From IMG/VR virus record IMGVR_UViG_3300020718_000011, positions 1 to 64,000 of that record: 64,000 nt of DNA. One strand, written 5' to 3'. The notes beneath the pieces are model-generated. The model had not been told where the DNA came from. It saw nothing but the letters and a program-made list of their open reading frames with translations, and did not search any database. Made by a program: the position numbers and the translations under genes. Each line of letters opens with the position of its first letter. The stretch's first letter is position 1. The DNA comes from a virus. Taxonomy: Duplodnaviria > Heunggongvirae > Uroviricota > Caudoviricetes. Positions 16,260 through 64,000 of this stretch are shown here, piece after piece.

Positions 16260-16622
16260 ATGAAAATTCTAAAATTGGCTGCATTGACAGCTATAGCCGT
16301 AAATGGCTCGAACACAGCAATCCCTGAATGGGCAAAAGAAAGTATTTGGGATCTTACAACAGAAGGTTATATAGCCCCACGGGTTATTGCTGCTGTTTCG
16401 GTAGATCCCCCGGGATACGTAGTAACAGAAAAAGGGCAGAAGCTGGTATCTATGTTGGAGGCATGTTCTGACTATTTCGGGGTGCACCAGGATCTAAAAG
16501 AGGGTGCAGCAGAAGCATACTCCGCAGCCAAAGAGGATACAGGAAAAATTATTAACGAGGGAAAGAAGAAGTTTAACAGTATGTTGGATTTTCTGAAAAT
16601 TCCATTACATGAAGAAAAATGA
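16260..16622 (+). CDS. putative secreted protein
   Basis: N-terminal MKILKLAALTAIAVNGSNTA signal-like segment; TGA/ATG coupling to rtcB. Confidence 0.45.
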   Translation: MKILKLAALTAIAVNGSNTAIPEWAKESIWDLTTEGYIAPRVIAAVSVDPPGYVVTEKGQKLVSMLEACSDYFGVHQDLKEGAAEAYSAAKEDTGKIINEGKKKFNSMLDFLKIPLHEEK

Positions 16623-17836
16623 CAGAAAAACAAATTGCAGTAGATTATTTCTGCGAACCTGATAAGATTGATGAGAATGCTAAAGCCCAATTAGACCAGT
16701 ATAGTAAAATGCCGGGATTGGAGAAGCTTTGTGCTTTCCCTGACATCCACTTTTGTGACGAGAAAGCCATTCCAGTAGGTGTGGCTTTCTCTACTCGGGG
16801 TATATTCTATCCACTCGTAACCGGCAAAGATGTTGGGTGTGGTGTTGGCTATGCCCGAATAGGAAAAAAGTATTTACTAAAACCTTTTGATAAGAGCAAA
16901 CATTACAATGCTTTGGAACGGGCTCATCGTGATATGACCGACGAAGGATTGGGGGGAGGAAATCATTTTCTATCTTTGGAAGAGGATGACGAATATCTTT
17001 ATGTCATTTGCCATACTGGTACAAGGAATAGGGGTATAGCTCTTTACCAAGAAGGCTATCAAATGGTAAAAGAATACTCCAATGAAATTGGGGAGGAGGT
17101 TAAGTATGTTTCCTGGGAATGGATGAGAGAGAAACATCCAGAATACTTAATGAGCGTTTTGAGAATTCCGGATTATGCAACCAAGCGCAGGGCGGATTTC
17201 GTATTCAAAACAATAACCTTCCTTCAAAAGAATGGGTATCTGGAAAACACAAAGCCCATAGAAAAAGATTACTTGTCCCGAGATTATTGGATTAAATCAA
17301 TAATGGATGAATACCATCCTGATCTTGGTATACCAGGGAAGGAGTGGCTCCCAAAGACAAAAAGGACTCCAATTGAAATAAATGGGATACCTTATGAGTG
17401 GCATGATTCGATGCACAATCATTTAGAATTCAAAGAAGATGGATCAATAATACACAGGAAAGGAAGTACGGAAATAAATCCTGGCGATGAGGTAGCTATT
17501 CCCCTTTCGATGACCAGGGGAACATTGATAGTAAAGGTTCATCCGTTTCATGATATAACAGGAGCACTTAATTCTTGTTCTCATGGAGCAGGTAGAAAGC
17601 TATCACGATTTGATTCCATGAAACATTGGCGAACAGTACTGAAGGCTAAGGAAAGAAAAGCATATGAGGAAAGGTTTTCGGAGCTACTTGATAAGAGTGG
17701 GAAATTTCCTTCTGGATACCTCCAGGAATTTGACTACGCATACAAAGATTCGTCGGACATTCTGACGATGCAACCATATTTAAGAAAGGTAACTCAAACA
17801 ATACCTATTGTAACTATTAAATACACAGAAATCTAA
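16619..17836 (+). CDS. rtcB: RNA-splicing ligase RtcB
   Basis: GKDVGCGVGYA, GGGNHFLSLEED, ICHTGTRNRG, WHDSMHNH and SHGAGRKLSR line up with RtcB metal/GTP motifs (GvDIGCGm, GGGNHF, HSGSRG, HNhA, HGAGR); 405 aa. Confidence 0.75.
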   Translation: MTEKQIAVDYFCEPDKIDENAKAQLDQYSKMPGLEKLCAFPDIHFCDEKAIPVGVAFSTRGIFYPLVTGKDVGCGVGYARIGKKYLLKPFDKSKHYNALERAHRDMTDEGLGGGNHFLSLEEDDEYLYVICHTGTRNRGIALYQEGYQMVKEYSNEIGEEVKYVSWEWMREKHPEYLMSVLRIPDYATKRRADFVFKTITFLQKNGYLENTKPIEKDYLSRDYWIKSIMDEYHPDLGIPGKEWLPKTKRTPIEINGIPYEWHDSMHNHLEFKEDGSIIHRKGSTEINPGDEVAIPLSMTRGTLIVKVHPFHDITGALNSCSHGAGRKLSRFDSMKHWRTVLKAKERKAYEERFSELLDKSGKFPSGYLQEFDYAYKDSSDILTMQPYLRKVTQTIPIVTIKYTEI

Positions 17837-41346: not shown

Positions 41347-42314
41347 TATAGGTATAGGCGTTTAGATCGCAATGCTGTAGCTTTGCCTTATGGAGAGGCG
41401 AATTACCTTTGCAGGTGTGAATTCAATTATGTTCCACCAACGGTTTAAAACAGACGACGACTGCCTGGAATATTTATCTGGCGTTAAATGGGAGAATGGA
41501 TTTAGCTGTAAGAGATGCAACAATGATAAATATTGTGCTGGTAAAAAGCCGTTCAACAGACGATGTACCAAATGTCGGTATGAGGAAAGTCCAACATCGG
41601 GTACTATGTTTGACAAGGTTAAATTTTCAATTTTAAAGGCATTTCACATTGCTTTTAAAATAAGTACAAAGAAGAAAGGGATGTCCAGTTTAGAGTTAAG
41701 CAATGAGTTTGACCTGCGCCAAAAGACTTGTTGGGAGTTTAAATGGAAACTACAGCAGGCCATGGCAAGCAGTCTAAAATACCCTTTAACAGGAACGGTA
41801 CACGTAGATGAGTGTTACATTGGGGGCCCCGAAGAGCAAAAAAGAGGTAGAAGTAAAGGCGATAAAAAACTCATTGTTTTAGTATTAGAGATTATTGATG
41901 GTGGTGTAGGCAGAGCATATGCTGAAGTGATAGAACATTCATCGGCTAAAGAATTGGGCGCATTTTTGAGGAAATATGTATCCAAGGATGCAAAGATTAT
42001 ATCGGATGAATGGCTCGGTTATACTCCCTTAAAAACAGAATTTACGAAATTGGAGCAAGTGGCATCGGATGACGGAAAAAACTTTAAAGACATACACATT
42101 CATATAATGAATATAAAAAGCTGGTTAAGAGGTATTCACCACCATTGCAGTAAGGAACGTATTCAAGGATACCTGGATGAATATCACTTTAGATATAACA
42201 GAAGACAAAAAATGGGGGTAATCTTTGATTCCCTTATAAAACGAATGGTCAAAAATGATCCAATACGCTTGTTATCAAAGGATTGATATTGCGACCTAAG
42301 TGCCTATACCTATA
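41347..42314 (+). mobile_element. IS1595-family insertion sequence (about 970 bp)
   Basis: Single transposase ORF flanked by 13-bp terminal inverted repeats TATAGGTATAGGC (41347-41359) / GCCTATACCTATA (42302-42314), and ACTA immediately outside both ends (candidate 4-bp target duplication). Confidence 0.65.
41390..42286 (+). CDS. IS1595-family transposase
   Basis: N-terminal zinc ribbon (CKRC...CTKC) and the hallmark VDECYIGGPEE (DEtyIGG) of ISXO2-like/IS1595 DDE transposases. Confidence 0.75.
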   Translation: MERRITFAGVNSIMFHQRFKTDDDCLEYLSGVKWENGFSCKRCNNDKYCAGKKPFNRRCTKCRYEESPTSGTMFDKVKFSILKAFHIAFKISTKKKGMSSLELSNEFDLRQKTCWEFKWKLQQAMASSLKYPLTGTVHVDECYIGGPEEQKRGRSKGDKKLIVLVLEIIDGGVGRAYAEVIEHSSAKELGAFLRKYVSKDAKIISDEWLGYTPLKTEFTKLEQVASDDGKNFKDIHIHIMNIKSWLRGIHHHCSKERIQGYLDEYHFRYNRRQKMGVIFDSLIKRMVKNDPIRLLSKD

Positions 42315-50446: not shown

Positions 50447-50520
50447 CCCAGTATTCCCCAACCACATGACCCCCACCTAGTATACACACCCATCCCCCCG
50501 GGAGACCCCCTGCGTGTCTA
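50447..50520. repeat. C-tract-rich island (G-quadruplex potential on minus strand)
   Basis: cccagtattccccaaccacatgacccccacctagtatacacacccatccccccgggagaccccctgcg: six C-runs of 3-6 in an otherwise AT-rich genome. Confidence 0.5.
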
Positions 50521-50603: not shown

Positions 50604-51074
50604 TAAATATGTGGATAAAATAACCAAAAGTGTTAGAACCTACAAAGACCGGAGTTAAGAAAAGTATATCACAATCTACAAGGATGGTAAAAATTACATA
50701 TAATGGAATTTCTATGTTAGCAGTAGCAATTAGTTTTGTTAGTGGAGCATATTATATGGAAAAATATTATCTACTACAAGATGGTAATATAGGTTTAGAG
50801 TATGGGGATTTTGATTCTATAGTTGGCATGAATCCATCCGAATTATTTAATAGTAAAATGTAATCTATTATAGATTTACCTTCATTATAATAGATAGAAA
50901 TTAATTAGGATTATCCCATAATCCCACCTCCGGTTTATGGATCCGGAAAAAGGAATCCCCTTCAATAGTTTGCGGGAAAACATTAAAGGTTTGTTAATGA
51001 CATTTGCATTCAGGTTTACAAAAAAAATGCAAACTCGCCCGAAGCACCCCCGCGGAATTTTCGGAGAACATATT

Positions 51075-51155
51075 TAACAAAGATTTAACAATGGAATTTT
51101 TTTTATTCAAGAACTATTATTATCGCGGGCGTGTGTGCGGGCTTCTTATTATTAT
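51075..51155 (+). repeat. promoter-like element with the -7 box replaced by a GC-rich block
   Basis: agatttaacaatggaatttttttattcaagaactattattatcgcgggcgtgtgtgcgggc; upstream half is class-A promoter, downstream half is a GC island related to the 56491 and 56615 blocks. Confidence 0.5.
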
Positions 51156-51177
51156 AAAAATTCAAGGAGTTTCTTAA

Positions 51178-51795
51178 CTATATAATTTTATTACTCTTTT
51201 TTAAATTATCTAATTTCCATAATGGTTGTAGATTTGTATAATGGTTTAATTTAATAACCTCTTCGAATGTTGTCGCACTATCTAATGGTATTATGTGGTC
51301 TATATGCCATTTTCCATAATTTTCTATAGTCATTCCATCTACAAATTTAGATTTAATATACTCTACGAAAAATTCAGGTGTACAACCTAATATATCAAAT
51401 GTCTTACTTTCTTTAACTAATCCTTTCCTCTTAAAAGAACCATATACTAAGTTTCTAGTATTGGCTTTAAATTTATACAATGGGTCAATTTTCATTCTGT
51501 TCTTACGGTACTCTTTCATTTCTTCCTTTACTTCAGAATATGGCTTTCTCTTTTTTGGTTTAATCTTATAGTATTCGTTTTGCTTTTTATTAAGTTCTTT
51601 TCTCTTTTCTGGTTCCTTTCTATTTTCTAGTATACTCCCTTTATTTTTTAGATAGTAACTATTAGACTCTTCCTTTATCTTATCCTCATTCTTTTTGTAA
51701 TACTCCTTTTTATATTTCCTAATTTTCTCTTTATTAAGTTCTCTATATTTTTTCTGGTACTCACTCATATTTTGAGTCTTATTGGGTTCTTTCAT
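51178..51795 (-). CDS. HNH homing endonuclease
   Basis: DPLYKF...ILGCTPE..W..DHIIPLDSA..NHYTNLQPLW..DN..KSN; KEYYKKNEDKIKEE N-terminal repeats; ATATATA box upstream. Confidence 0.8.
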   Translation of the reverse strand: MKEPNKTQNMSEYQKKYRELNKEKIRKYKKEYYKKNEDKIKEESNSYYLKNKGSILENRKEPEKRKELNKKQNEYYKIKPKKRKPYSEVKEEMKEYRKNRMKIDPLYKFKANTRNLVYGSFKRKGLVKESKTFDILGCTPEFFVEYIKSKFVDGMTIENYGKWHIDHIIPLDSATTFEEVIKLNHYTNLQPLWKLDNLKKSNKII

Positions 51796-51820
51796 GTCTA
51801 TTATATTTTATCTATATATC

Positions 51821-51830
51821 TGAGTTATTG
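51821..51830 (-). promoter_or_regulatory. class-B ATATATA box
   Basis: Minus strand reads gatatatagataaaatataatagacATG before HNH 51795. Confidence 0.3.
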
Positions 51831-51891
51831 CCTAATTTTTAGAAAACTTATTACGCATAACGAAAACGCACACAATTAAATTCCTTAACAA

Positions 51892-51950
51892 ATCTTTAAC
51901 TTAAAAAATTTTTTTATCTTGAAAACATGCTTTATATTTGCTTTATCAAT
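51892..51950 (+). promoter_or_regulatory. class-A phage promoter
   Basis: aatctttaacttaaaaaatttttttatcttgaaaacatgctttatatttgctttatca; drives 51984; this sequence block is duplicated at 56850. Confidence 0.55.
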
Positions 51951-51983
51951 TTAATTATTAACAATTAAACAAGTTTAAAAAAA

Positions 51984-52526
51984 ATGGAAAAGACAGCATC
52001 GGCCAACACGGCCACAGACACAAAAACAACCGGAGCACAGGGTGCAGAGGTTGTAGTAACAGAGCAGCCTGCTGCAAGCAGCGTTAGCATCGTTCCAACA
52101 GCGGTAGCCGTAGAGGTACCAAAAGTTCGCCTGTTCTGGCAGAAAGCGTGCGGATCTATGAAGGATTCTACCCTTACGCCAATTAAAGACGACGAAGTAT
52201 TTGTAAGGACCTCTCACCAGGTAGGCGTTATCCCTGCCGGCGCACCGGATGGCACTGCACCAGTTGCAGAGACCGTTTACAGCATGAAGCGCGGTAAAAG
52301 GATCTACTACACACCTTCTTCTTTCATTACCGATGCACAGCGTCTCGCTGCTGATACCGCGACTGACCTCAAGGTAAAAGAGAAAGAGGCAGCAGCCAAG
52401 GTAAAGGCTGATGAAAAAGCCAAGAAAGAGCAGGCGAAAAAGGATGCGGCAGCAGCCGGTCCAAAAGTAGTAGCTGGCCCAACAGTGGTAGCGGCTCCGG
52501 CAACAATTACCGAAAAATCTCTCTAA
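51984..52526 (+). CDS. Ala/Lys/Thr-rich protein, paralog A of a duplicated pair
   Basis: Core VPKVRLFWQKACGS..TLTPIKDDEVFVRT.H.VGVIPAGA..GTAPV..VYSMKRGKRIYYTPSSFITDAQR with AKVKADEKAKKEQAKKDAAAAGPKVVAG tail; GC and codon usage above background; own promoter and bidirectional terminator. Confidence 0.55.
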   Translation: MEKTASANTATDTKTTGAQGAEVVVTEQPAASSVSIVPTAVAVEVPKVRLFWQKACGSMKDSTLTPIKDDEVFVRTSHQVGVIPAGAPDGTAPVAETVYSMKRGKRIYYTPSSFITDAQRLAADTATDLKVKEKEAAAKVKADEKAKKEQAKKDAAAAGPKVVAGPTVVAAPATITEKSL

Positions 52527-52543
52527 AGGGGTACATCGGAATT

Positions 52544-52582
52544 AAAAGAAAAACATCAGCTTAGTGCTGGTGTTTTTCTTTT
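52544..52582. terminator. bidirectional intrinsic terminator between convergent genes
   Basis: aaaagaaaaacatcagc-ttagt-gctggtgtttttctttt: about 17-bp stem with A-rich 5' arm and U-rich 3' arm, between 51984-52526(+) and 52561-53394(-). Confidence 0.6.
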
Positions 52583-53394
52583 GTCCAATTTAATTTATTT
52601 CGTTTGCTTTGATTATCAGGAGCCCATAATGGCTGGAAATTTGTATAATGGTTCAATCTTATAATTTCTTTTTGGGTAGTAGCGGAACTAGATGGTATAA
52701 TATGATCAATTTGCCATAGATTTCTATTATCCCACGACATTCCTTCCCAAAATTGAGATTCTATATGAATTTTAAATTGTTCTATGGTACATCCTAATAT
52801 TTCTTGGGAACGTGAATTTTTACTAAATCCATTATTTTTTAGGGATTGCCTTATTAGGTTACTTGTCTCTTTAGAAAACTTAAATAAGGGATCTCTTTTT
52901 AATCTCTCTTTTATATAATTACCATTTCTTTTAGCGATGGCTTTTTTATTTTCTATATAATATTGTTTTTTATCAATGGAGACTTTATTCTTGTTTTTTA
53001 GATATTTCTCTTTATCCTTTTCTATCCTTTTCTCCTTATGTAATTGATATGATTTTTTGTTATTAGATAATATTTTCTCTTTATTTAATTGATAGAGCTC
53101 TCTTCTACGTGCTAATTTTTCTTCCCTATTTGCTTGATAGAGTTCTTTTTTACGAGTTAATTCCTTATCCTTATTTAGTTTATAATATTCTCTTTTATTG
53201 GAATTTATTTCATCCCTTTTTAATTGTCTATTTTCTCTCCTTCTTTTTAATTTCTCTCCCTTGTTTAATTTATAAAGCTCATTTCTATTAGATAATTTTT
53301 CCTCGTGTGTCATATAGTATTTTATATTAACTATATATTTAAGTTTCAACCGGGGTATGCTTGTGTTTATCCAATCCATCTTTGATCGATTCAT
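52561..53394 (-). CDS. HNH homing endonuclease
   Basis: DPLFKF..ILGCTIE..W..DHIIPSSSA..NHYTNFQPLW..DN..KRN; long Lys/Glu/Tyr repeat N-terminus; likely true start MTHEEK (about 53313), which is preceded by an ATATATA box. Confidence 0.8.
   Translation of the reverse strand: MNRSKMDWINTSIPRLKLKYIVNIKYYMTHEEKLSNRNELYKLNKGEKLKRRRENRQLKRDEINSNKREYYKLNKDKELTRKKELYQANREEKLARRRELYQLNKEKILSNNKKSYQLHKEKRIEKDKEKYLKNKNKVSIDKKQYYIENKKAIAKRNGNYIKERLKRDPLFKFSKETSNLIRQSLKNNGFSKNSRSQEILGCTIEQFKIHIESQFWEGMSWDNRNLWQIDHIIPSSSATTQKEIIRLNHYTNFQPLWAPDNQSKRNKLNWTKEKHQH
53329..53340 (-). promoter_or_regulatory. class-B ATATATA box
   Basis: Minus strand reads aaatatatagttaatataaaatactatATG before the probable internal start of HNH 52561-53394. 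Confidence 0.3.
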
Positions 53395-53468
53395 TGGTCG
53401 AGGGAGCGCCCCGCAATTCAGTAAGAAATTTAATAAAATCAGTAAAAGTGGAAAGATATATAGGGTAT

Positions 53469-53822
53469 ATGAAAACTATAAAAGAATTTGATAACTATAC
53501 TCCTCTTAATGAGGATGAAACTACCGGTGGCTCTTTTGACGTAGCTAGGTTTAGTATTGCTGTTAAAAGGTGTGCAGCAGCATTGGAAGAACATGATATA
53601 GGTAAATTTGTTAGTATCTACAGCAGCCAGATAAAGAGTGTAATTAATAGTCCAGAAGCTCGTCAGAGAACGGATTTAATTAAACAATTGGCAGAAAGTA
53701 TCGAGATAGCAAAGGAAGGAATGAGCCCAGAAGAAAAGAGAGAGGTATTTGTTCTTATTATGCCTAAACTAACAGAGCAAATAGATAAAGATCCTGAGTT
53801 AAGGGCTAAGTACGAAATATAG
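53469..53822 (+). CDS. hypothetical protein
   Basis: Track ORF 53361-53822 overlaps the HNH gene start; trimmed to Met MKTIKEFDNY. Confidence 0.4.
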   Translation: MKTIKEFDNYTPLNEDETTGGSFDVARFSIAVKRCAAALEEHDIGKFVSIYSSQIKSVINSPEARQRTDLIKQLAESIEIAKEGMSPEEKREVFVLIMPKLTEQIDKDPELRAKYEI

Positions 53823-53861
53823 GTTAGAGATCCCCCTGGAGGCCCCTTGTGTAAGAGAAGA

Positions 53862-54317
53862 TTAATGTATTCTTTGGAAGTCTGGTTCTGGCCAGACTTT
53901 TTTATTGTAGGCTTCCATTAGAATTTTCACTACGTGTTCAAATATAAATGGGATTTCTCCCATTTCAAAGGTTCTTATAGTAGAAGGTACCAAAGGATCT
54001 AATTCCGTTGCGTTGTATTCCTGTCCTTGTAAAACATTAAAAAACCAATTAGATTTTTCTATATCATAATATAGTATACATAAAACACCTACATCTTTAT
54101 AGATATCCTCTTCTGTGGAGTTCCCATATACATATGTGGATTGTGTCCAAAGAGAATTTGGATTAGGTAAAATATAATCAACCCTAGTTGTTATATGAAC
54201 AGCAGGCATTACCCACTTAGTCATAGCTGCTTGTGCATTCCTATAATGAGATAGCATAAAAAGAATGAGGATAATAATAAACACATTAGTCCCCCCTATG
54301 GGCCCCTTGTGTTCCAT
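53862..54317 (-). CDS. hypothetical membrane-anchored protein flanked by direct repeats
   Basis: 151 aa; N-terminal TM helix; the CDS is bracketed by near-identical 22-bp direct repeats containing GGCCCCTTGTGT. Confidence 0.45.
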   Translation of the reverse strand: MEHKGPIGGTNVFIIILILFMLSHYRNAQAAMTKWVMPAVHITTRVDYILPNPNSLWTQSTYVYGNSTEEDIYKDVGVLCILYYDIEKSNWFFNVLQGQEYNATELDPLVPSTIRTFEMGEIPFIFEHVVKILMEAYNKKVWPEPDFQRIH

Positions 54318-54580
54318 TATACCGTTACTTTAATGATGAGGATTTTATCTTTATATTTGTCCGTAGATTGCTCTAAGGTTTCGACGCGGAAGGTCTCGTT
54401 GGGCTTTGCTACGTGTTTATTAAGAAACTCTCCGACTGAGATTTTAGTTCCCTTATGTTCACCAGTAAACCCTATATCATCGAGTGCGTCTTTATGAGAT
54501 TTGATTAGTCTTAGTTGCGCCCAGTTCTCTGATTTACCCTGGACTCTTGTTACACGAAAGGTCTCGATTTTAACTGCCAT
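54317..54580 (-). CDS. hypothetical protein
   Basis: 87 aa with internal ETFRVTRVQG / ETFRVETLEQ repeat. Confidence 0.4.
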   Translation of the reverse strand: MAVKIETFRVTRVQGKSENWAQLRLIKSHKDALDDIGFTGEHKGTKISVGEFLNKHVAKPNETFRVETLEQSTDKYKDKILIIKVTV

Positions 54581-54908
54581 GGTTCGTGGTAGATTTAATT
54601 AGTTAGATAATTGTAATGGGGTTATTTCTTCTTTACGAAGTACTTATAGTATAGAACCGCACAAATGATAATTGCTACTACCATATATGCTTGAGGTTCC
54701 GTTTCTGCCTGTAGAAATAATGGACTTCGGATATGGAGAGTGGAAACTTGCATATTGGTATCGTTTTTGAGGATAAGTCAATAAAATGATATTAACAAAA
54801 TCTTAGAGCAAATTTAATGAAAAGTTAACAAATAAAAAAATCCAAAATGTTAAATTTGCGTTAAAGAATTTTAACATCTCCCGGCTTAATTCTGTATACT
54901 TATTTCCT

Positions 54909-54919
54909 GATATATAGAT
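54909..54919 (+). promoter_or_regulatory. class-B ATATATA box (T4-late-like)
   Basis: gatatatagat ends 3 nt before the ATG of GIY-YIG gene 54922. Confidence 0.3.
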
Positions 54920-54921
54920 TT

Positions 54922-55734
54922 ATGAAAGGTTATATTTATAAAATAACAAGCCCATCTGGTAAAGTTTATATAGGTCAAACTAAAAATATTTCTAATAGGA
55001 AGAATAGTTATAAAGGATTTAATACTCCTAGCACTTCTATAAAAGCTCAAATTAAATTATATAATAGTCTTAGTAAATATGGATGGGATAATCATAAATT
55101 TGAAGTTATAGATGAATGTCAATTTTGTGGTATTAATAATTGGCTATTGGATTCTTTAGAAATTCATTGGATAAATGAATATGATAGTTTTAATAATGGA
55201 TTAAACTGTACTAAAGGTGGATCTGGCCAGTGCGGACATAAACATTCAATAGAAGCTAAACTAAAAATGGGTAACTCAATGAAGGGAAGGGTTATGTCAG
55301 AGCAAACTAAACAAAAAATAAGTAATTCAAACAAAGGAATACTTATTCACACAAAAAGAAAACCTCTTTCTGATGAGACCAAACAAAGAATAAGTAATTC
55401 AAATAAAGGAAGAACTCATGCTAAATACGAGAGAACCCCTCATTCAGAGGAAACTAAACAAAAGATGAGTAATTCTCAAAAGGGTAGGGTACCATCAGAA
55501 GAAACTAAAAAGAAAATAAGTAATTCTAAAAAAGGAACGGTATGTTCAGAAGAAACTAAACAAAAGATGAGTAATTCTCAAAAGGGTAGGGTTACATCAG
55601 AAGAAACTAAACAAAAAATAAGTAGTTCACACAAAGGAAAGAAACAAATCCCGCATTCAGAAGAAACTAAAAAGAAAATAAGTAATTCTCTTAAGTCAAA
55701 GAAAACTAATTTGAATAATCTACTTCTATTCTAA
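54922..55734 (+). CDS. GIY-YIG homing endonuclease with NUMOD3-like repeats
   Basis: MKGYIYKITSPSGKVYIGQT (GIY-YIG), KYGWDNHKFEVI, NGLNCTKGG; about 7 repeated SEETKQKISNS(N/Q)KG(R) modules; ATATATA box upstream. Confidence 0.8.
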   Translation: MKGYIYKITSPSGKVYIGQTKNISNRKNSYKGFNTPSTSIKAQIKLYNSLSKYGWDNHKFEVIDECQFCGINNWLLDSLEIHWINEYDSFNNGLNCTKGGSGQCGHKHSIEAKLKMGNSMKGRVMSEQTKQKISNSNKGILIHTKRKPLSDETKQRISNSNKGRTHAKYERTPHSEETKQKMSNSQKGRVPSEETKKKISNSKKGTVCSEETKQKMSNSQKGRVTSEETKQKISSSHKGKKQIPHSEETKKKISNSLKSKKTNLNNLLLF

Positions 55735-56344
55735 AATTTGATATAGGTTGGTCTTCAATAATAAGGAGTAACTTAGATATAAGTTCTGCCCTATTTAGTG
55801 AACCTGCTAATGAGAATGTTACCTGGGAGTGAACTGGTACAGTTTCAATTGGTGGTGCCGGAGGTTGTATTGGTCCTTGGTGCTGTATAATTGGACTAAC
55901 ATCCAAGATAATAGTTTCTTGGTCTTTGGTCTTTACCTGTACTTGTTGTTTGGCTTTTGCTCTTTCATCGAGTATAGCCTGTCTTTCACGTTTCTCTTTT
56001 TCTTTGTGTTCCTTTTTGGCCTTCTTGAGTTTGTATTCCTCAGACGAATAATATGTGTAAGCCTTTTGATTAAGTTCGTAGATCGCTCCAGTTACTCTGG
56101 TAGCCAAATGAACTGCAGTTGTATTAGAAGGTTTGGAGTACTTCCAATCAAATACAAAGCCACCTAGTTTTGAGCTTTCCAATATTTCCAATACTCCCAT
56201 CTCTTCTAATACCTTAAAGAAGCGAGCATCTAATTTATGGTCTTCTATAAATGCGGTTTTTTTAATGGGAACCACCTTCTGTACCATATCCTGTAGTACA
56301 TTTAGTGCGTCTGTGTAATTTTCTATACTAAGTTGTTGTGACAT
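55706..56344 (-). CDS. hypothetical protein
   Basis: Track ORF starts at 56380; Met MSQQLSIENY chosen; Lys/Glu-rich coiled-coil middle and Pro-rich segment. Confidence 0.45.
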   Translation of the reverse strand: MSQQLSIENYTDALNVLQDMVQKVVPIKKTAFIEDHKLDARFFKVLEEMGVLEILESSKLGGFVFDWKYSKPSNTTAVHLATRVTGAIYELNQKAYTYYSSEEYKLKKAKKEHKEKEKRERQAILDERAKAKQQVQVKTKDQETIILDVSPIIQHQGPIQPPAPPIETVPVHSQVTFSLAGSLNRAELISKLLLIIEDQPISNFRIEVDYSN

Positions 56345-56443
56345 TTTTAAGAAAGAATTTAATATAACGTAAATATACATAAAATATTTTAAGGTTAAAA
56401 ATCAATAGCTGTAATATTTTGTTAAAGAAATTATTTATACACA

Positions 56444-56625
56444 TTAACAACTCCCTAACAATTTATTCAAAAACTATTGTTTATTATTCGCGCTCGTGCG
56501 CCCACCCGCGCGAGGAGAATTTCGCAGAGGCACCCCCGCGCATGATATTACAATGAGTTTAAAAGCTTTAACAACTCCCTAACAATTTATTCAAAAACTA
56601 TTGTTTATTATTCACACGAGCGTAC
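56444..56625. repeat. two 47-bp perfect direct repeats, each abutting a GC-rich quasi-palindrome
   Basis: TTAACAACTCCCTAACAATTTATTCAAAAACTATTGTTTATTATTC at 56444-56490 and 56568-56614; followed by gcgctcgtgcgcccacccgcgcg and, inverted, cacgagcgtacgcgcacgc. Confidence 0.7.
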
Positions 56626-56701
56626 GCGCACGCACTTTTTTATATTTATATCAAAAATTCAAAGAGTTTACACAAAGAGTTGGGTCTCTACTCTTTTAAT
56701 T

Positions 56702-56775
56702 TTCTTTAACATTACCTTAACAACATTTATTTTTTTATTTTGAAACGATTCTTTAAATTTGCTTCAACAATTTAA
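56702..56775 (+). promoter_or_regulatory. class-A phage promoter (upstream copy of a tandem pair)
   Basis: ttctttaacattaccttaacaacatttatttttttattttgaaacgattctttaaatttgcttcaaca; TAAATTTG box. Confidence 0.45.
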
Positions 56776-56849
56776 TTATTAACAATACAAAAAATAATTA
56801 AAATGGAGTATAAAAAAACGAAACGAAACTCTATTAAATTCATTAACAA

Positions 56850-56910
56850 ATCTTTAACTTTAAAAATTTTTTTATCTTAAAACGATTTCTTAAATTTGCT
56901 TTATCAATTT
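56850..56910 (+). promoter_or_regulatory. class-A phage promoter
   Basis: atctttaactttaaaaatttttttatcttaaaacgatttcttaaatttgctttatca; drives 56940. Confidence 0.55.
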
Positions 56911-56939
56911 AATTATTAATAATCAAAAATCAAAAAAAA

Positions 56940-57653
56940 ATGAGCAACAACAAACACAGTAAAGGACGCGGCGCAGCCGGTCACACAACAGGCAGCGAGC
57001 ACACTTCTGCTGAACACACTGACACTGCAATCGACACTGCAATCGACACTGCAGAACACACTGACACCGCAACGGAAGAAACCAAAACGGAAACTACCGA
57101 GGCCAGCGCAGAACACACCGACCCCGCAACAGAAACTGCAGAACACACAGAGCCAGCACCAGAAGTGAAAGTTACTGAAACACCTGCTGCTTCTACCCTG
57201 TCTATCGTGCCAACCGCAGTGGCCAAGGAAGTACCAAAAGTTCGTCTCTTCTGGCAGAAAGCGTGCGGATCAATAAAAGAAAGCACTCTCACCCCTATCA
57301 AGGATGATGAAGTATTCGTTCGCACTGCCCACACCGTAGGTGTCATCCCTGCAGGTGCAGCAGAAGGTACTGCACCTGTTATCGAAATCGTTTACAGCAT
57401 GAAGCGCGGTAAAAGGATCTACTACACACCTTCTTCTTTCATTACCGATGCACAGCGCGTTGCAGCCGACCTGGCCACTAATACGAAGAACGCAGAAAAG
57501 GAAACCGCAGCCAAAGTAAAGGCTGATGAAAAACTGAAAAAAGAGCAGGCGAAAAAGGACGCAGCCGCAGCCGGTCCTAAGGTAGTAGCGGGAGCAACAA
57601 TAGTTGCCGCACCAGCAGCAGCCACAGAAACCGCTACCGAAGAAGTAAAATAA
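56940..57653 (+). CDS. Ala/Lys/Thr-rich protein, paralog B
   Basis: Same conserved core and AKVKADEKLKKEQAKKDAAAAGPKVVAG tail as 51984-52526, plus N-terminal AEHTDTAIDTAIDTAEHTDTA repeats; tandem promoters upstream; terminator downstream. Confidence 0.55.
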   Translation: MSNNKHSKGRGAAGHTTGSEHTSAEHTDTAIDTAIDTAEHTDTATEETKTETTEASAEHTDPATETAEHTEPAPEVKVTETPAASTLSIVPTAVAKEVPKVRLFWQKACGSIKESTLTPIKDDEVFVRTAHTVGVIPAGAAEGTAPVIEIVYSMKRGKRIYYTPSSFITDAQRVAADLATNTKNAEKETAAKVKADEKLKKEQAKKDAAAAGPKVVAGATIVAAPAAATETATEEVK

Positions 57654-57812: not shown

Positions 57813-58400
57813 CTACAAAATTTTATTACTTTTCCATATGTTATCAGAAGCCCATAATGGTTGAAAATTACTGTAATGGTTTAATTTAATTATCTCATCC
57901 TCGTTGGTTGCACTATCTATTGGTATGATATGGTCAAAATGCCATTTACCATAATTAGACCAATCCATTCCTTCCGTAAATTTATTCTCAATCCATATTT
58001 TAAATTCCTCATAAGAGCAGCCAAGTATTTGGTAAGTAGAGGATTTTTTCGTATAACCATTTCTACGAATACTTTGTGCTATGGTTCTTTTAATCTTTTG
58101 GTGTAATTTATAAAGTGGATCTACCTTCATTCTTTCTCTAAGACGTAATTTCCTTCTACTACTTCTCTCTTCTTTTGTTAGTGGTATTTTAGGTTCCTTT
58201 TTTGGAAGTTTTTCGTAGCATCTCTTTTTGGCAGCTACGCATTTCTCTTTATTGTTTTTATAATACTCTTTTTGGTATTCCTTCTTACTTTCCTTATTTC
58301 TTTCATACCATTCTGCCATTCCAGTCCTTTTGTGCATAATTTTTATTTTTATATATCTAATGTTTACGTCTCGAAAACCAGGAATTCTGTGTTTATACAC
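57813..58400 (-). CDS. HNH homing endonuclease
   Basis: DPLYKL..ILGCSYEEFKIW..DHIIPIDSA..NHYSNFQPLW..DN..KSN; true start probably an internal Met (MHKRTG/MAEWYER), which is preceded by an ATATATA box. Confidence 0.75.
   Translation of the reverse strand: MYKHRIPGFRDVNIRYIKIKIMHKRTGMAEWYERNKESKKEYQKEYYKNNKEKCVAAKKRCYEKLPKKEPKIPLTKEERSSRRKLRLRERMKVDPLYKLHQKIKRTIAQSIRRNGYTKKSSTYQILGCSYEEFKIWIENKFTEGMDWSNYGKWHFDHIIPIDSATNEDEIIKLNHYSNFQPLWASDNIWKSNKIL
58349..58360 (-). promoter_or_regulatory. class-B ATATATA box
   Basis: Minus strand reads agatatataaaaataaaaattATG before the internal start of HNH 57813-58400. Confidence 0.3.
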
Positions 58401-58403
58401 ATT

Positions 58404-58461
58404 CTTTAACGTTATCTTAACAAATAGTATTTCACAATACAGAAACGATTTGTTATATTTG
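58404..58461 (+). promoter_or_regulatory. class-A phage promoter with no downstream protein gene
   Basis: ttctttaacgttatcttaacaaatagtatttcacaatacagaaacgatttgttatatttg; TATATTTG; about 190 nt later an intrinsic terminator, no substantial ORF. Confidence 0.45.
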
Positions 58462-58464
58462 CTT

Positions 58465-58661
58465 TTTAATAATAATTATTTAAGCGTACCTAAATTGTTT
58501 GACTATGATAAGGAATAAAGGTTCTCCATAAGTAGTAACTTATTTATTATATTATATTTAGATTATGTCCGAAGACCGAATAAGTCCAGAGTAGGAAAAG
58601 ATTAATTTAGTTTGAGAATGGCAGGATAGAATTAGTTACTATTCTGCCATTTTTGTTTTTT
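58465..58661 (+). ncRNA. candidate about 190-nt non-coding transcript (promoter to terminator, no ORF)
   Basis: Class-A promoter 58404-58461 followed by only tiny ORFs (under 12 codons) and the strong terminator at 58617-58661. Confidence 0.3.
58617..58661 (+). terminator. plus-strand intrinsic terminator
   Basis: tggcaggatag-aattagtta-ctattctgcca: 11-bp stem (one G.U), then TTTTTGTTTTTT; overlaps the 3' end of minus-strand GIY-YIG gene. Confidence 0.6.
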
Positions 58662-59330
58662 AGAGTGAGCTATCTTTAATGAATTACTCATCTTTTGTTT
58701 GGCTTCAGGAGTATTAAATTTTTCCTTCATCATAAGTTTTAATTTTAACTTATGCTCATCAGATAATGGTTTTCTTTTAGCCCTATTATTACCTTCCCTA
58801 ATTTTTTGTTTAGTCTCTTCAGATATAGGATTTCTAGTTTTACCCTTTAATGAGATGGATATTTTCTTCTTAGTTTCATCCGTAACAAATTTACGTTTAT
58901 CTATTTTTGGTTGATCTATTTTAGCCTTAGCTATTTTTGGTTTACTATCTCTATCTTTTATTAATCCCAATAAATTTCTATTTTTATTTCCTTTTAATGA
59001 ATTGGATATTTTTATTTTCATCTCTTCGGATATACTAGTAGTTCCACCACCTCCTTCCGTACAATTTAATCCATCCTTAAATGAGTTAAATTTAGAAATC
59101 CAGTATATCTCTCTTTCAAAAAGTATAGGGTCCTTATTATTATCCAATGTGAGTTCTTCTATTACTTCTTTAGTATGATTCTCCCATCCATATTTATTTA
59201 CGGACCAATATAATTTATGTTGTTTCCTATCAACTCCATATTTATATCTTTCGTTTATACTATTTTTAGTTGTACACCCTATATAAATACGTCCGGTTGG
59301 GCTAGTAATTTTATAGATAAGTCCTTTCAT
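58632..59330 (-). CDS. GIY-YIG homing endonuclease with NUMOD3-like repeats
   Basis: MKGLIYKITSPTGRIYIGCT, KYGWENHTKEVIEEL, DGLNCTEGGGG; repeated SEEMKIKISNSLKG / TDETKKKISISLKG / SEETKQKIREGN modules. Confidence 0.8.
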   Translation of the reverse strand: MKGLIYKITSPTGRIYIGCTTKNSINERYKYGVDRKQHKLYWSVNKYGWENHTKEVIEELTLDNNKDPILFEREIYWISKFNSFKDGLNCTEGGGGTTSISEEMKIKISNSLKGNKNRNLLGLIKDRDSKPKIAKAKIDQPKIDKRKFVTDETKKKISISLKGKTRNPISEETKQKIREGNNRAKRKPLSDEHKLKLKLMMKEKFNTPEAKQKMSNSLKIAHSKKQKWQNSN

Positions 59331-62829: not shown

Positions 62830-63101
62830 AGAGATATAAAGTAATCTCCCCTAATTTTGGTGGAGTCGATAAGTTCGATGAAGATTGGTTGTTTCTGGTC
62901 ATGGGTATTAAAATAGAAATGACCAATATCGTAATGACCCGATTAAAAAAACTACCGGGTACTGACGTTAAGGAGATACAGGATGATGGTGTTGTCCAGG
63001 ACATAACCTCTTTCTATGCTAACCTAAACGAAAAACAATTGGAACAAATAAGAGCATTAGGTTTCTACTGCTCTGAACAACATGGTGCATTTAATCCTTA
63101 A
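62826..63101 (+). CDS. hypothetical protein
   Basis: 91 aa; ATGA overlap. Confidence 0.4.
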   Translation: MKRYKVISPNFGGVDKFDEDWLFLVMGIKIEMTNIVMTRLKKLPGTDVKEIQDDGVVQDITSFYANLNEKQLEQIRALGFYCSEQHGAFNP

Positions 63102-63150
63102 CAAATTCTTAACAAAGACTATTAAAACTATTCTTTATATTTGTATCTAA
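63095..63150 (+). promoter_or_regulatory. class-A phage promoter (short-spacer variant)
   Basis: cttaacaaattcttaacaaagactattaaaactattctttatatttgtatcta; drives 63163. Confidence 0.45.
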
Positions 63151-63162
63151 AATTAAATTTCT

Positions 63163-63776: not shown

Positions 63777-63915
63777 TTTCTCATCCCCCATAAACCTCCT
63801 GGCATTCTCCGTAAAGAGTGCCTTTTTTTTGACCAATTATATTATAAATATGAAGATATATTTTTTGCGGGGGTGCCTCACCTATATTTTAAATACAAGC
63901 AAACTACTTTATAAA

Positions 63916-63972
63916 ATCTTTAACAAATCTATTTGACAAACTTATTAAATTATTTCATACATTTGTATTAAT
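63916..63972 (+). promoter_or_regulatory. class-A phage promoter
   Basis: aatctttaacaaatctatttgacaaacttattaaattatttcatacatttgtattaat; a truncated ORF (MRMIK) starts at about 63986. Confidence 0.5.
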
Positions 63973-64000
63973 AAAATTAGGAATTATGAGAATGATAAAA

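What the first reader, a model, noticed from the sequence alone, without database searches (positions are those of the whole stretch)
51000..56640. GC-rich 'decapitated promoter' repeats sharing a GCACCCCCGCG motif upstream of both paralog loci
Three elements begin like the class-A promoter (..TTTAACA...ATTTATTCAA(A/G)AACTATT..) but replace the -7 box with GC-rich quasi-palindromes:
- 51075-51155: ...ctattattatcGCGGGCGTGTGTGCGGGC
- 56444-56512: 47-bp repeat followed by GCGCTCGTGCGCCCACCCGCGCGAGG
- 56568-56636: identical 47-bp repeat followed by CACGAGCGTACGCGCACGC, inverted relative to the first

Nearby is the motif GCACCCCCGCG (51045 cccgaaGCACCCCCGCGgaattttcgg; 56528 cagagGCACCCCCGCGcatg). 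A reverse-complement copy (gcgggggtgcctcacc) sits at about 63868, and a relative gcccccggggtggtgc at about 59552. The sequence cggaattttcgg at 51057 is a perfect 12-bp palindrome.

In a genome of roughly 30% GC these islands stand out. They may be operator sites for a phage regulator of the highly expressed paralogs, homing-endonuclease recognition sites, or recombination hotspots that generated the duplication.
Basis: seen in the sequence. Interest (0 to 1): 0.6.

Follow-up and report, generated by a model that had tools for sequence, protein, structure and literature searches.

The report
Split promoter with Z-DNA-prone GC tract
Upstream of two duplicated, probably very highly expressed genes of a huge freshwater phage sits a conserved promoter copy whose key recognition box is interrupted by a short alternating G/C-rich tract, most likely a DNA-level control element rather than an RNA gene, an endonuclease target or junk.

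Summary
The "perfect palindrome" cggaattttcgg is not one, and the 59552 motif belongs to another family.

Two elements are involved:
- **GCACCCCCGCG** is a degenerate copy of a clade-wide palindrome, GGGGYRCCCC. It lies 25-60 nt from TTAAC-N6-TTAAC promoter modules at 35 of 54 sites (11% expected, P~1e-20). It behaves as an operator or upstream activating site.
- **The "decapitated promoter"** is conserved in 12 independent instances from related phage contigs. It is a complete promoter upstream half, then an 11-34 nt alternating purine/pyrimidine (CG/CA)n tract starting where TTTG of the -7 box (TAnnTTTG) belongs, then a conserved GCGCACGCAC|TTCTTATTATTATA junction. It lies 100-120 nt upstream of the consensus promoter of the paralog gene.

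These tracts are the only such runs, and the most Z-DNA-prone segments, in the 64-kb window. I found no conserved RNA structure, no Rfam hit, no conserved inverted repeats and no consistent link to endonuclease insertion points.

Best reading (confidence about 0.4): a DNA-level, supercoil-responsive or factor-bound gate on a disabled tandem promoter copy. The main rival is a conditional second promoter.

The parts
51039..51064 (+). Locus A upstream GC motif: CCGAA-GCACCCCCGCG-GAATT-TTCGG. This is a degenerate copy of the clade palindrome GGGGYRCCCC, 20 nt (end to start; about 30 start to start) upstream of the TTAAC module.
51074..51123 (+). Locus A promoter upstream half: TTAACAAAGATTTAAC, a T-run, then ATTCAAGAACTATTATTAT, ending in a degenerate -7 box (TAttATCG).
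   Evidence: (D9)
51124..51142 (.). Island A: CGCGGGCGTGTGTGCGGGC, an alternating purine/pyrimidine tract (11-nt perfect run). It is the second most Z-prone segment of the window.
51143..51172 (+). Conserved AT-rich right flank TTCTTATTATTATAAAAATTCAAGGAG. It reads as a second, degenerate -7-like half.
   Evidence: profile hit 51129-51169, 27.6 bits
51178..51795 (-). HNH/endonuclease VII-type homing endonuclease gene, inserted between element A and its class-A promoter. It is absent at this place in L006.
51881..51959 (+). Class-A consensus promoter of paralog A: TTAAC-N6-TTAAC, T-run, and -7 box TATATTTG at 51933-51940.
   Evidence: (D3)
51984..52526 (+). Paralog A gene (180 aa, GC-rich, no known family or fold).
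56434..56489 (+). Locus B copy 1 of the promoter upstream half. This is a recent 56-nt duplicate of 56558-56613, specific to this phage.
   Evidence: D12; relatives have one copy
56490..56517 (.). GC block after copy 1 (GCGCTCGTGCGCCCACCCGCGCGAGGAG). It is not alternating and resembles a diverged tandem copy of the GCACCCCCGCG motif. Its first 8-mer is the reverse complement of the start of island B.
56526..56543 (+). Locus B upstream GC motif GAGGCACCCCCGCGCATG, a member of the GGGGYRCCCC family, 28 nt (end to start; about 38 start to start) upstream of the TTAAC module of copy 2.
56558..56612 (+). Locus B copy 2 of the promoter upstream half (TTAACAACTCCCTAAC .. AACTATTGTTTATTATT), ending in a degenerate -7 box (TAttATTC). 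It is the orthologue of the element in related phages.
56613..56635 (.). Island B: CACACGAGCGTACGCGCACGCAC, an alternating tract (16-nt perfect run) with one in-phase interruption. It is the most Z-prone segment of the window.
56636..56665 (+). Right flank TTTTTTATATTTATATCAAAAATTCAAAG. By eye it closely resembles the core (-7 box plus start region) of the real promoter at 63098-63160, about 24 of 28 positions in an ungapped comparison that no tool scored, with TAnnTTTG changed to TATATTTA.
   Evidence: by-eye comparison; the MAFFT alignment does not place these stretches in that register; 35.2 bits
56702..56917 (+). Two tandem class-A consensus promoters (56702-56780 and 56839-56917, with -7 boxes TAAATTTG at 56754-56761 and 56891-56898) driving paralog B.
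   Evidence: (D3, D8)
56940..57653 (+). Paralog B gene (237 aa).
55706..56380 (-). Divergently transcribed 224-aa gene, conserved next to locus B in relatives. It is a candidate regulator, but this is unproven.
63866..63881 (-). Reverse-complement copy of the upstream GC motif (GGTGAGGCACCCCCGC), 39 nt (end to start; about 46-49 centre/start to start) upstream of the TTAAC of the promoter module at 63902-63976.

Best explanation
**What it is (shown).** The window belongs to a 474-kb contig with Bacteroidota-type promoters (-7 box TAnnTTTG). Its promoters are modular: an upstream GC palindrome (GGGGYRCCCC), about 40 nt, TTAAC-N6-TTAAC, about 30 nt including a T-run, then the -7 box.

The 'decapitated promoters' are copies of one such unit in which the -7 region is split. 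The left half keeps TA but not TTTG. An 11-34 nt alternating (CG/CA)n tract follows, ending in GCGCACGCAC. Then comes a second degenerate -7-like half, TTCTTATTATTATA / TTTATATTTA. This unit lies 100-120 nt upstream of the true consensus promoter(s) of the paralog gene. It has been kept in that place in at least nine related phage contigs, while the spacer sequence around it diverged.

GCACCCCCGCG is simply this phage's degenerate version of the standard upstream palindrome.

**How it most likely works (inferred).** It acts as DNA, not RNA.
- The palindrome and TTAAC repeats still provide binding sites for whatever factor or RNA polymerase contacts serve all promoters of this clade.
- The GC tract replaces the part of the -7 box that must be recognised and melted, so this distal copy is shut or only conditionally open.
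- The tract is the most Z-DNA-prone sequence of the window. It sits where negative supercoils build up, behind the very strong paralog promoter and, at locus B, between divergent promoters.
- It would therefore flip from B-form to Z-form (estimated threshold sigma about -0.04 to -0.045) when the main promoter fires. That would absorb torsional stress and/or change the geometry between the upstream sites and the downstream promoter, acting as a supercoil-responsive gate or buffer.
- The nearly invariant junction GCGCACGCAC|TTCTTATTATTATA may additionally be read by a sequence-specific protein.
For: - **Conservation.** There are 12 independent instances with the same anatomy. The island end lies 100-120 nt from the class-A -7 box in 9 loci.
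- **Register.** The island starts where TTTG belongs. In L024 the left half is TATATTCG, one substitution from the consensus.
- **Alternation.** 88% of steps alternate purine/pyrimidine. Each of the 10 homologous islands tested (L024 and L111 were found later) is significant against shuffles, and the interruptions are single in-phase substitutions.
- **Rarity.** Alternating GC runs of at least 10 nt occur nowhere else in the 64-kb window, and in relatives almost only at the homologous sites.
- **Z-DNA propensity.** Using the published B-Z energies (PMC3024258), the islands are the top-ranked Z-prone segments of the window, with similar thresholds in all relatives.
- **Strand symmetry.** The variable 5' part of the tract shows no significant strand bias in composition, as expected for a duplex-level role.
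- **No RNA signal.** There is no conserved RNA structure from the island to the next promoter and no Rfam match.
- **Specificity.** A sequence profile of the module finds only the 12 known instances in about 220 kb, so it is not a general promoter class.
- **Upstream palindrome.** It is tied to promoter modules at 35 of 54 sites against 11% expected, P~1e-20.
- **Promoter duplication is common here.** Tandem duplication of promoters recurs at this locus (D3/D8; L020).
Against: - No transcript, binding or structural data exist. Z-DNA formation and the direction of any regulatory effect are inference.
- The B-Z threshold estimate is crude and lies above typical unconstrained superhelicity.
- The 3' ten nucleotides and the right flank are conserved in sequence and are strand-asymmetric (A much more frequent than T). 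A purely structural role does not require that; it points to a protein site or a core promoter.
- In L111 the module lies 26 nt upstream of an ORF with no other promoter in between, which fits a promoter better than a buffer.
- At locus A the upstream gene is co-directional, so the 'between divergent promoters' argument holds only for locus B.
- The spacing between the TTAAC module and the island end varies from 37 to 62 nt.
- Paralog-A loci of several relatives work without the element.
Confidence: 0.4

Rival explanations
1. Conditional second promoter (P2). The unit is still a promoter. Either the left half (TAnnTTCG/ATCG) followed by a GC-rich 'discriminator' and initial transcribed tract, or the right half (TATATTTA / TATTATTA) with the GC tract as its upstream element, is used by host RNA polymerase under special conditions (high negative supercoiling, or a phage-modified or phage-encoded sigma factor). 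This would give a long-leader mRNA for the paralog at another time of infection.
For: - All 12 instances point toward a downstream ORF.
- In L111 the module is 26 nt from the ATG of an endonuclease-like ORF with no TAnnTTTG in between.
- In L024 the left box is one substitution from the consensus.
- The -7 variant TATATTTA also appears to serve the 224-aa gene in the window and in L004.
- The spacing from GCAC to TATA is constant at 14-16 nt (counted by eye on the ungapped rows) and the junction is conserved.
- Tandem promoters of different timing are common in large phages (own knowledge, for example T4).
Against: - The TTTG of the -7 box, the main determinant in Bacteroidota promoters (own knowledge), is missing or damaged in both halves.
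- The module is not a promoter class: there are no further hits in about 220 kb.
- The spacing between the upstream module and either half is variable.
- The tract length varies from 11 to 34 nt.
Confidence: 0.25
2. Sequence-specific protein site. The conserved junction GCGCACGCAC|TTCTTATTATTATA(N)AAAAT is the binding site of a phage protein. Candidates include an autoregulator of the paralog, the divergent 224-aa gene product, or a replication or partition factor. On this reading the alternation is a by-product of the site's sequence and of slippage.
For: - The junction is nearly invariant in 11 of 12 instances, while the spacers around it are not conserved.
- The 3' ten nucleotides are strand-asymmetric.
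- A conserved divergent gene of unknown function lies next to every B locus.
- The C-terminus of the paralog is Lys/Ala-rich, like nucleoid proteins.
Against: - No DNA-binding domain was detected in any neighbour.
- The model of the 224-aa protein was unusable (pLDDT 50).
- The paralog fold has no match.
- The site is neither palindromic nor repeated.
- The 5' part of the tract varies in length yet stays alternating, which a simple operator does not explain.
Confidence: 0.15
3. Non-functional relic. An old tandem promoter duplicate was inactivated either by insertion of a small mobile GC cluster with target-site duplication, as with GC clusters in yeast mitochondrial DNA, or by expansion of a CG/CA microsatellite. 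It is carried along because it is harmless.
For: - The flanks on both sides of the tract are imperfect direct repeats of the -7 region, above chance (P 0.0015-0.017).
- Tract lengths differ by dinucleotide steps between relatives. For example, L011 and window B differ by GT/GC indels.
- Promoter duplications are frequent at this locus.
Against: - The element is kept at the same place, with the same junction sequence, across relatives whose adjacent proteins are only 45-60% identical, while the neighbouring spacer has diverged beyond alignment.
- Alternation is maintained in the variable part.
- There are no other copies, as a mobile cluster would leave.
- It occurs in two further, unrelated gene contexts in the same orientation.
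Confidence: 0.1
4. Homing-endonuclease target or recombination hotspot. The GC islands are cleavage sites of the neighbouring HNH/GIY-YIG enzymes, or break and recombination sites that drove the duplication of the paralog cassette.
For: - Five endonuclease genes lie within 8 kb.
- Three of the 12 islands have an endonuclease gene within about 100 nt (window A, L004, L111).
- One 56-nt duplication ends at an island boundary, and island 1 contains an inverted 8-mer of island B.
Against: - The insertion points are on different sides and at different distances from the island, and nine loci have none.
- The islands are equally intact in endonuclease-plus and endonuclease-minus loci, whereas a homing site is normally disrupted or altered in the endonuclease-carrying genome (own knowledge).
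- The tract sequence and length vary, which is unlike an endonuclease recognition site.
Confidence: 0.05
5. RNA or DNA secondary-structure element: a small RNA gene, an intrinsic terminator, a hairpin promoter or an invertible promoter bounded by inverted repeats.
For: - In the window, the left and right GC blocks are partly complementary around the promoter-like segment.
- One terminator-like hit covers island A.
- Many islands contain short palindromes.
Against: - There is no conserved structure or covariation and no Rfam or tRNA hit.
- Fold z-scores are weak, -1.0 to -2.05.
- Complementarity with upstream GC blocks is absent in all relatives.
- The palindrome content is no higher than alternation alone gives (P=0.07).
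- The enclosed segment (about 70-120 bp) is too short for recombinase-mediated inversion (own knowledge), and I did not look for a recombinase; none turned up in the partial scans of the neighbours.
Confidence: 0.03

Closest known systems
Bacteroidota sigma-A promoters (-33 TTTG / -7 TAnnTTTG)
   Same: The functional promoters of the window carry TAnnTTTG at a fixed distance from an upstream T-run. The element keeps all upstream parts in the same register.
   Different: In the element, the TTTG of the -7 box is replaced by a GC tract, and a second degenerate -7-like half follows. The TTAAC-N6-TTAAC repeats and the GGGGYRCCCC palindrome are clade-specific additions that, to my knowledge, have not been described for host promoters.
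Z-DNA-forming (CG)n/(CA)n tracts upstream of active promoters. This covers transcription-induced Z-DNA in plasmids, SIBZ theory (PMC3024258), and eukaryotic examples such as the HO-1 promoter (PMC3664823).
   Same: These are alternating purine/pyrimidine, CG/CA-rich tracts of 12-24 bp located upstream of a strong promoter, where negative supercoils accumulate. The islands rank top by published B-Z energetics.
   Different: Here the tract sits inside a disabled promoter copy in a phage genome. It is short, close to the 8-12 bp lower limit in some relatives, and has a sequence-conserved 3' end. No Z-DNA evidence exists for it.
Upstream activating sequences or operators of phage and bacterial promoters (palindromic sites for dimeric regulators)
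   Same: GGGGYRCCCC is a 10-bp palindrome at a preferred distance (mostly 30-55 nt) from the promoter modules. It occurs in either orientation, often midway between divergent promoters.
   Different: The binding protein is unknown. In the window phage most copies are half-degenerate (AGGCACCCCC). It lies unusually far upstream, about -100 relative to the start site.
Phase-variable promoters with simple-sequence repeats between the promoter elements (for example the (TA)n tract in Haemophilus influenzae hif; own knowledge)
   Same: A dinucleotide-type repeat tract is lodged between the upstream and downstream promoter elements, and its length differs between lineages in 2-nt steps.
   Different: The tract is GC-rich and imperfect. 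It adds 11-34 bp, which is far beyond a functional spacer. No length variation was seen between near-identical contigs.
Yeast mitochondrial GC clusters and ori/rep elements (promoter followed by a GC cluster in an AT-rich genome; own knowledge)
   Same: These are short GC-rich islands in a very AT-rich genome, placed directly after or inside a promoter, with flanking AT-rich direct repeats.
   Different: There is no family of dispersed copies, the islands are not clearly palindromic beyond chance, and there is no sign of a replication origin.
GC-rich discriminator promoters under stringent or supercoiling control (E. coli rRNA/tRNA promoters; own knowledge)
   Same: GC-rich sequence sits immediately downstream of the melting element, which would make opening dependent on supercoiling.
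   Different: Those promoters keep a good -10 element and a discriminator of only 6-8 bp. Here the recognition element itself is damaged and the tract is much longer.

Membership tests
Functional Bacteroidota sigma-A promoter | A -7 box TAnnTTTG at the canonical distance from the upstream elements | tested here: not met
   At the canonical distance the element has TAttATCG, TAttATTC, TAttCGCG or TAtaTTCG. The right half has TATATTTA or TATTATTA. All nine real TTAAC-module promoters of the window except the element have TAnnTTTG.
Functional Bacteroidota sigma-A promoter | A transcription start a few nucleotides downstream of the -7 box | not testable with these tools
   No transcript data are available.
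Z-DNA-forming sequence | An alternating purine/pyrimidine tract of at least 8-12 bp, rich in CG and CA/TG steps | tested here: met
   Perfect runs are 10-25 nt and 88% of steps alternate, significant in each homologous island. These are the only such runs in the window and rank top by B-Z energy (parameters from PMC3024258).
Z-DNA-forming sequence | A B-to-Z transition under physiological or transcription-induced supercoiling | not testable with these tools
   Only a crude estimate is available: a threshold of sigma -0.040 to -0.045 for a 5-kb domain.
Operator / upstream activating site (GGGGYRCCCC family, including GCACCCCCGCG) | A recurrent palindromic motif at a constrained distance from promoters | tested here: met
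   35 of 54 sites lie 25-60 nt from a TTAAC module, against 11% expected (P~1e-20). The window copies are at 51044, 56530 and 63866.
Operator / upstream activating site (GGGGYRCCCC family, including GCACCCCCGCG) | A cognate DNA-binding protein | tested here: inconclusive
   There are no Pfam or PHROG hits in the neighbouring genes, and the model of the 224-aa protein was unusable.
Structured small RNA | Conserved secondary structure with covariation, or a match to a known family | tested here: not met
   RNAalifold predicted 2 pairs with no covariation. Rfam returned nothing at gathering threshold or at E<=1 in the region. Fold z-scores were -1.0 to -2.05.
Intrinsic terminator | A stable GC-rich hairpin directly followed by a U-tract | tested here: not met
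   Hairpin potential is not above what alternation alone gives. Only island A is flagged, and that needs G-T pairs. The T-rich flank is interrupted (TTCTTATTATT).
Invertible promoter (inverton) | Conserved inverted repeats bracketing the promoter, plus a site-specific recombinase | tested here: not met
   Complementarity between the island and upstream GC blocks is found only in the window (8 nt) and is absent in eight relatives. I did not search for a recombinase gene. Only selected ORFs were scanned against Pfam/PHROGs, and the only mobility-related hit was an IS1595 transposase about 9 kb away.
Homing-endonuclease recognition site | A site next to the endonuclease insertion point, intact in endonuclease-free genomes and altered in carriers | tested here: not met
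   The islands are equally intact with and without adjacent endonuclease genes, and the insertion points are inconsistent. Cleavage itself cannot be tested here.
Mobile GC cluster (yeast mitochondrial type) | Many dispersed, related copies with target-site duplications | tested here: not met
   There is one module per paralog locus and none elsewhere in about 220 kb. The flanking direct repeats are only modestly above chance.
Simple-sequence-repeat phase-variable promoter | Tract length polymorphic among close strains, toggling a functional spacer length | tested here: inconclusive
   Tracts are identical in near-identical contigs. Lengths differ between species-level relatives, from 11 to 34 nt. 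No spacing matches a functional promoter.

The most novel reading that the evidence does not exclude
A clade of huge freshwater Bacteroidota phages keeps a 'Z-switch' in front of its most strongly promoted gene. This would be a promoter copy whose melting box is replaced by a (CG/CA)n tract that flips to left-handed Z-DNA when transcription-driven negative supercoiling rises. It would thereby sense and feed back on the activity of the adjacent promoter(s). It would be the first conserved, naturally selected Z-DNA regulatory element described in a bacteriophage.
Probability: 0.2. Interest if true: 0.75.

Novelty: new variant of a known kind. Interest (0 to 1): 0.5.

Why it matters
The transcription signals of uncultivated huge phages are almost unknown. 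This analysis yields a concrete modular promoter grammar for one clade: a GGGGYRCCCC palindrome, TTAAC-N6-TTAAC, a T-run and TAnnTTTG. It also identifies a conserved, highly unusual derivative of that grammar in front of a duplicated, probably very abundant protein of unknown function.

If the alternating tract works as a supercoil-responsive element, it would be a rare natural example of non-B DNA used for gene control in a bacterial virus, and a compact part for synthetic control in Bacteroidota. If instead it is a conditional promoter or a protein site, it still marks the paralog as a specially regulated gene and gives a defined 30-bp probe for finding the regulator.

Tried and rejected
- **Known RNA families and tRNAs:** none found.
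- **Single-sequence RNA folds of both loci and both strands:** weak z-scores.
- **Consensus RNA structure from island to next promoter in 9 relatives:** none.
- **Long-range inverted repeats (inverton or cruciform enclosing the promoter):** present only in the window, not in relatives.
- **Hairpin or palindrome content of the islands:** explained by alternation alone.
- **Similarity to GenBank phages:** only the endonuclease genes match.
- **IMG/VR and metagenome scans with the 47-nt repeat and with the 224-aa protein:** nothing.
- **Scans with the class-A promoter:** mostly the same contigs.
- **Genome-collection scan with the junction motif:** 74 hits. I estimate this is within the chance range for a pattern this size in 596 Gbp. 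The 14 most AT-rich contexts I read and an automated promoter-context filter over all hits showed none resembling the element.
- **Further junction patterns in IMG/VR:** only L024 and L105/L111 are genuine; the rest are chance or coding matches.
- **Pfam and PHROGs on the paralogs and neighbours:** no hits except HNH/endonuclease VII.
- **AlphaFold model of the divergent 224-aa protein:** unusable, pLDDT 50.
- **Paralog core:** modelled acceptably, but no fold match in PDB or BFVD.
- **Fixed helical phasing between the TTAAC module and the island:** not found.
- **ECF-type, sigma-54-type and sigma-70-type readings of the element:** considered by eye and with the consensus scan and dropped, because the spacings are not constant.
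- **Whether a Logan contig starting inside the -7 box marks a transcript 5' end:** it is an assembly break at a repeated promoter.

Full report
**Setting**

The window is 34% GC. It is identical to part of a 473,921-bp metagenome contig (ENA ERZ27271905 k141_26427) and to a 74-kb JGI contig from sample 3300020716. It has no close relative among GenBank phages apart from its homing-endonuclease genes.

The region 50-64 kb holds many small ORFs without family assignment. It also holds three HNH and two GIY-YIG endonuclease genes, and two GC-rich paralogous genes (51984-52526 and 56940-57653). Promoters are of the Bacteroidota type, with a -7 box TAnnTTTG (this consensus is established knowledge). 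That the contig is a huge phage of a Bacteroidota host is an inference from these features and from the viral classification of related contigs.

**Checking the observation**

All three promoter-like repeats and their GC islands are at the stated places:
- Island A is at 51124-51142.
- The GC block after copy 1 is at 56490-56517.
- Island B is at 56613-56635.
- The 56-nt repeat 56434-56489 / 56558-56613 is 93% identical, with its last ~47 nt identical.

GCACCCCCGCG is exact at 51044 and 56530. One-mismatch reverse-complement copies lie at 63866 and 30360. That is four matches against 0.05 expected.

Two details are wrong:
- cggaattttcgg is not a palindrome.
- The motif at 59549 is not related. 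Its L004 homologue looks like a terminator hairpin.

**The promoter grammar of this phage**

Exact TTAAC-N6-TTAAC occurs nine times in the window, against 0.4 expected. Eight of these are followed, after 22-31 nt that usually include a T-run, by TAnnTTTG. The ninth is element A.

In alignment with real promoters, the elements match up to the TA of the -7 box and then run into GC-rich sequence:
- Real promoters read TTATATTTG, TTACATTTG or TTAAATTTG.
- The elements read TTATTATCGCGG, TTATTCGCGTG, TTATATTCGCGC or TTATTATTCACACG.

'Decapitated promoter' is therefore a fair description.

**Relatives**

Homologues of the paralog protein (45-84% identity) led to related contigs from bog-lake metagenomes. 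In these, the same element sits upstream of the class-A promoter of the paralog: L004, L006, L007, L009, L011, L013, L019 and L020.

Pattern scans added two instances in other gene contexts:
- L024 has a TTAAC module, an island, another promoter and then an unrelated gene.
- L105/L111 has a 34-nt island 26 nt upstream of an endonuclease-like ORF, with no TTAAC module.

Near-identical contigs carry identical elements, so there are 12 independent instances.

The common anatomy is as follows:
- an upstream promoter half;
- an AT-rich TTATTAT(T)C;
- a GC tract of 11-34 nt ending in GCGCACGCAC;
- TTCTTATTATTATA(N)AAAAT;
- about 45-65 nt of unconserved spacer;
- the class-A promoter.

The island end lies 100-120 nt from the class-A -7 box. 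At window locus A an HNH gene (51178-51795) has been inserted between the element and the promoter; L006 lacks it. At window locus B only the upstream half has been duplicated once more (copy 1), and the class-A promoter is also present in tandem.

**Nature of the islands**

- 88% of steps alternate purine/pyrimidine.
- Perfect alternating runs are 10-25 nt. Each of the ten homologous islands tested is significant against shuffles. L024 and L111 were found later and were not part of that test.
- The interruptions are single in-phase substitutions (GAG, AAG, CTC).
- The GC block after copy 1 is not alternating.
- Alternating GC-rich runs of at least 10 nt occur nowhere else in the 64 kb. In relatives they occur almost only at the homologous places.
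- With the published B-Z energies (PMC3024258), the islands are the most Z-prone segments of the window. The crude thresholds are sigma -0.040 to -0.045 in all relatives.
- Their palindrome content is no more than alternation gives.
- The variable 5' part shows no significant strand bias in composition. The A-over-T bias comes from the conserved 3' ten nucleotides.
- The flanks on both sides are imperfect direct repeats of the -7 region, modestly above chance.
- By eye, the right flank of island B resembles the core of the real promoter at 63098, with TATATTTG changed to TATATTTA (my ungapped comparison of the sequences; no tool scored it, and the alignment does not show that register).

The island therefore looks lodged between two degenerate copies of the -7 region.

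**What it is not**

- Rfam and tRNA scans found nothing.
- There is no conserved RNA structure or covariation between the island and the next promoter, and single-sequence folds are unremarkable.
- Complementarity between the island and the upstream GC blocks exists only in the window, so a stem or inverton is not a conserved feature.
- A sequence profile of the module (R1) recovers the 12 instances (27-37 bits) and nothing else in about 220 kb, including 10 kb beyond the window. It is not a general promoter class or a dispersed mobile cluster.
- Endonuclease genes insert on different sides of the element or not at all, which argues against a homing site.

**The GCACCCCCGCG motif**

In relatives the corresponding motif is the palindrome GGGGYRCCCC, for example TTGGGGCGCCCCAA in L021 and CGGGGGTGCCCCCG in L013. 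Of 54 sites with a GGYRCC core and G/C flanks in ten loci, 35 have a TTAAC module 25-60 nt away, pointing away from the site. The random expectation is 11% (binomial P~1e-20).

The motif occurs in either orientation and often lies midway between divergent promoters. At B loci it precedes the element at the normal distance. At paralog-A loci that lack the element (L011, L021) it precedes the class-A promoter directly. The element is therefore a complete promoter unit, including its upstream site, in tandem with the real promoter.

The motif behaves as an operator or upstream activating site for a dimeric factor that is still unknown. No DNA-binding domain was detectable in the neighbours. The model of the conserved divergent 224-aa protein was unusable. 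The paralog core is a beta domain plus a long helix with no match in PDB or BFVD.

**Interpretation**

Shown:
- The element is a conserved, promoter-derived, non-coding module specific to the paralog loci and to two other genes.
- It is defined by an alternating GC tract at the position of the -7 box and by a conserved GC/AT junction.
- The GCACCCCCGCG motif is part of the clade's standard promoter architecture.

Inferred, with confidence about 0.4: the module acts as DNA. The distal promoter copy keeps its factor sites but cannot open normally. Its tract is Z-DNA-prone and lies where negative supercoils from the strong downstream promoter and, at locus B, the divergent promoter accumulate. 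It would then serve as a supercoil-responsive gate or buffer, possibly together with a protein that reads the conserved junction.

The main rival (0.25) is a conditional second promoter. It is favoured by the constant orientation toward an ORF, by the L111 context, and by the near-consensus left box in L024.

The other rivals are:
- a sequence-specific protein site (0.15);
- a neutral relic or mobile GC cluster (0.1);
- an endonuclease target or recombination hotspot (0.05);
- an RNA or DNA secondary-structure element (0.03).

**Verdict**

The element is a new variant of known kinds (promoter-associated cis-elements and Z-prone tracts). Function is unproven without transcript or biochemical data, and interest is moderate.

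Noticed in passing
window 58402-58640 (also L004:4220-4530, L007:15158-15445): A consensus promoter (TTAAC-N6-TTAAC .. TATATTTG) downstream of paralog B is followed by a conserved non-coding stretch, not by an ORF. The blocks TAAATTGTTTRACYATGA..AATAAAGGTTCNCC and ATTTAGATTATGYCCGAA are invariant, and L004 and L007 end it with a terminator hairpin. In the window it is cut by the GIY-YIG gene 58632-59330. It has no Rfam match and is a candidate phage non-coding RNA.
   Followed up: partly
window 53831-53852, 54291-54312, 50487-50514: 22-nt direct repeats (minus strand ACACAAGGGGCCnnnAGGGGG) bracket the ORF 53862-54317, and a third copy lies at 50487. The same CCCCC-N-GG-N-CCCC family occurs in L006 (9162) and L007 (9830, 12694). 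This is a second, unexplained family of GC-rich motifs, possibly cassette boundaries.
   Followed up: no
window 51178-51795, 52561-53394, 54922-55734, 57813-58400, 58632-59330: Five free-standing homing-endonuclease genes (three HNH/endonuclease VII-like, two GIY-YIG with NUMOD3-like repeats) lie within 8 kb around the two paralog genes. Related phages have fewer, and at other positions.
   Followed up: partly
window 51984-52526 and 56940-57653: The paralogs are about 45-50% GC in a 34% GC genome. They have an acidic Thr/Glu/Ala-rich N-terminus, a conserved beta-rich core (pLDDT 75-92), a long helix and a Lys/Ala-rich tail. There is no Pfam, PHROG, PDB or BFVD match. They are probably a very abundant protein of unknown function.
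   Followed up: partly
window 56702-56917: There is a tandem duplication of the class-A promoter (137-nt period) with a 25-codon mini-ORF starting at 56804 between the copies. L020 also has two tandem promoters here, so promoter duplication recurs at this locus.
   Followed up: no
window 53396-53415; L004:2395-2415; L007:10630-10650; L136:14292-14309: A sub-family of the GC motif, TCGAGAGAGCGCCCC(GCAA), is conserved upstream of the 117-124-aa gene homologues. It also occurs in inverted orientation near locus B in L007 (14057).
   Followed up: partly
L009:8860-9860: About 1 kb of C-rich, low-complexity non-coding sequence lies upstream of the paralog-A homologue in one relative. It replaces the element found in the window and in L006.
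   Followed up: no
window 41390-42286 and 16619-17836: There is an IS1595-family transposase gene (DDE_Tnp_IS1595 plus zinc ribbon) and an RtcB-type RNA ligase gene inside the presumed phage genome.
   Followed up: no
L013 (e.g. 12302, 15410), L011:4275, L004:4163, L020:276: In relatives the GGGGYRCCCC palindrome is often followed by a second palindrome, TTAAGAATTCTTGAA. The window has GAATTT(T)CG next to both GCACCCCCGCG copies, which may be a degenerate remnant.
   Followed up: no
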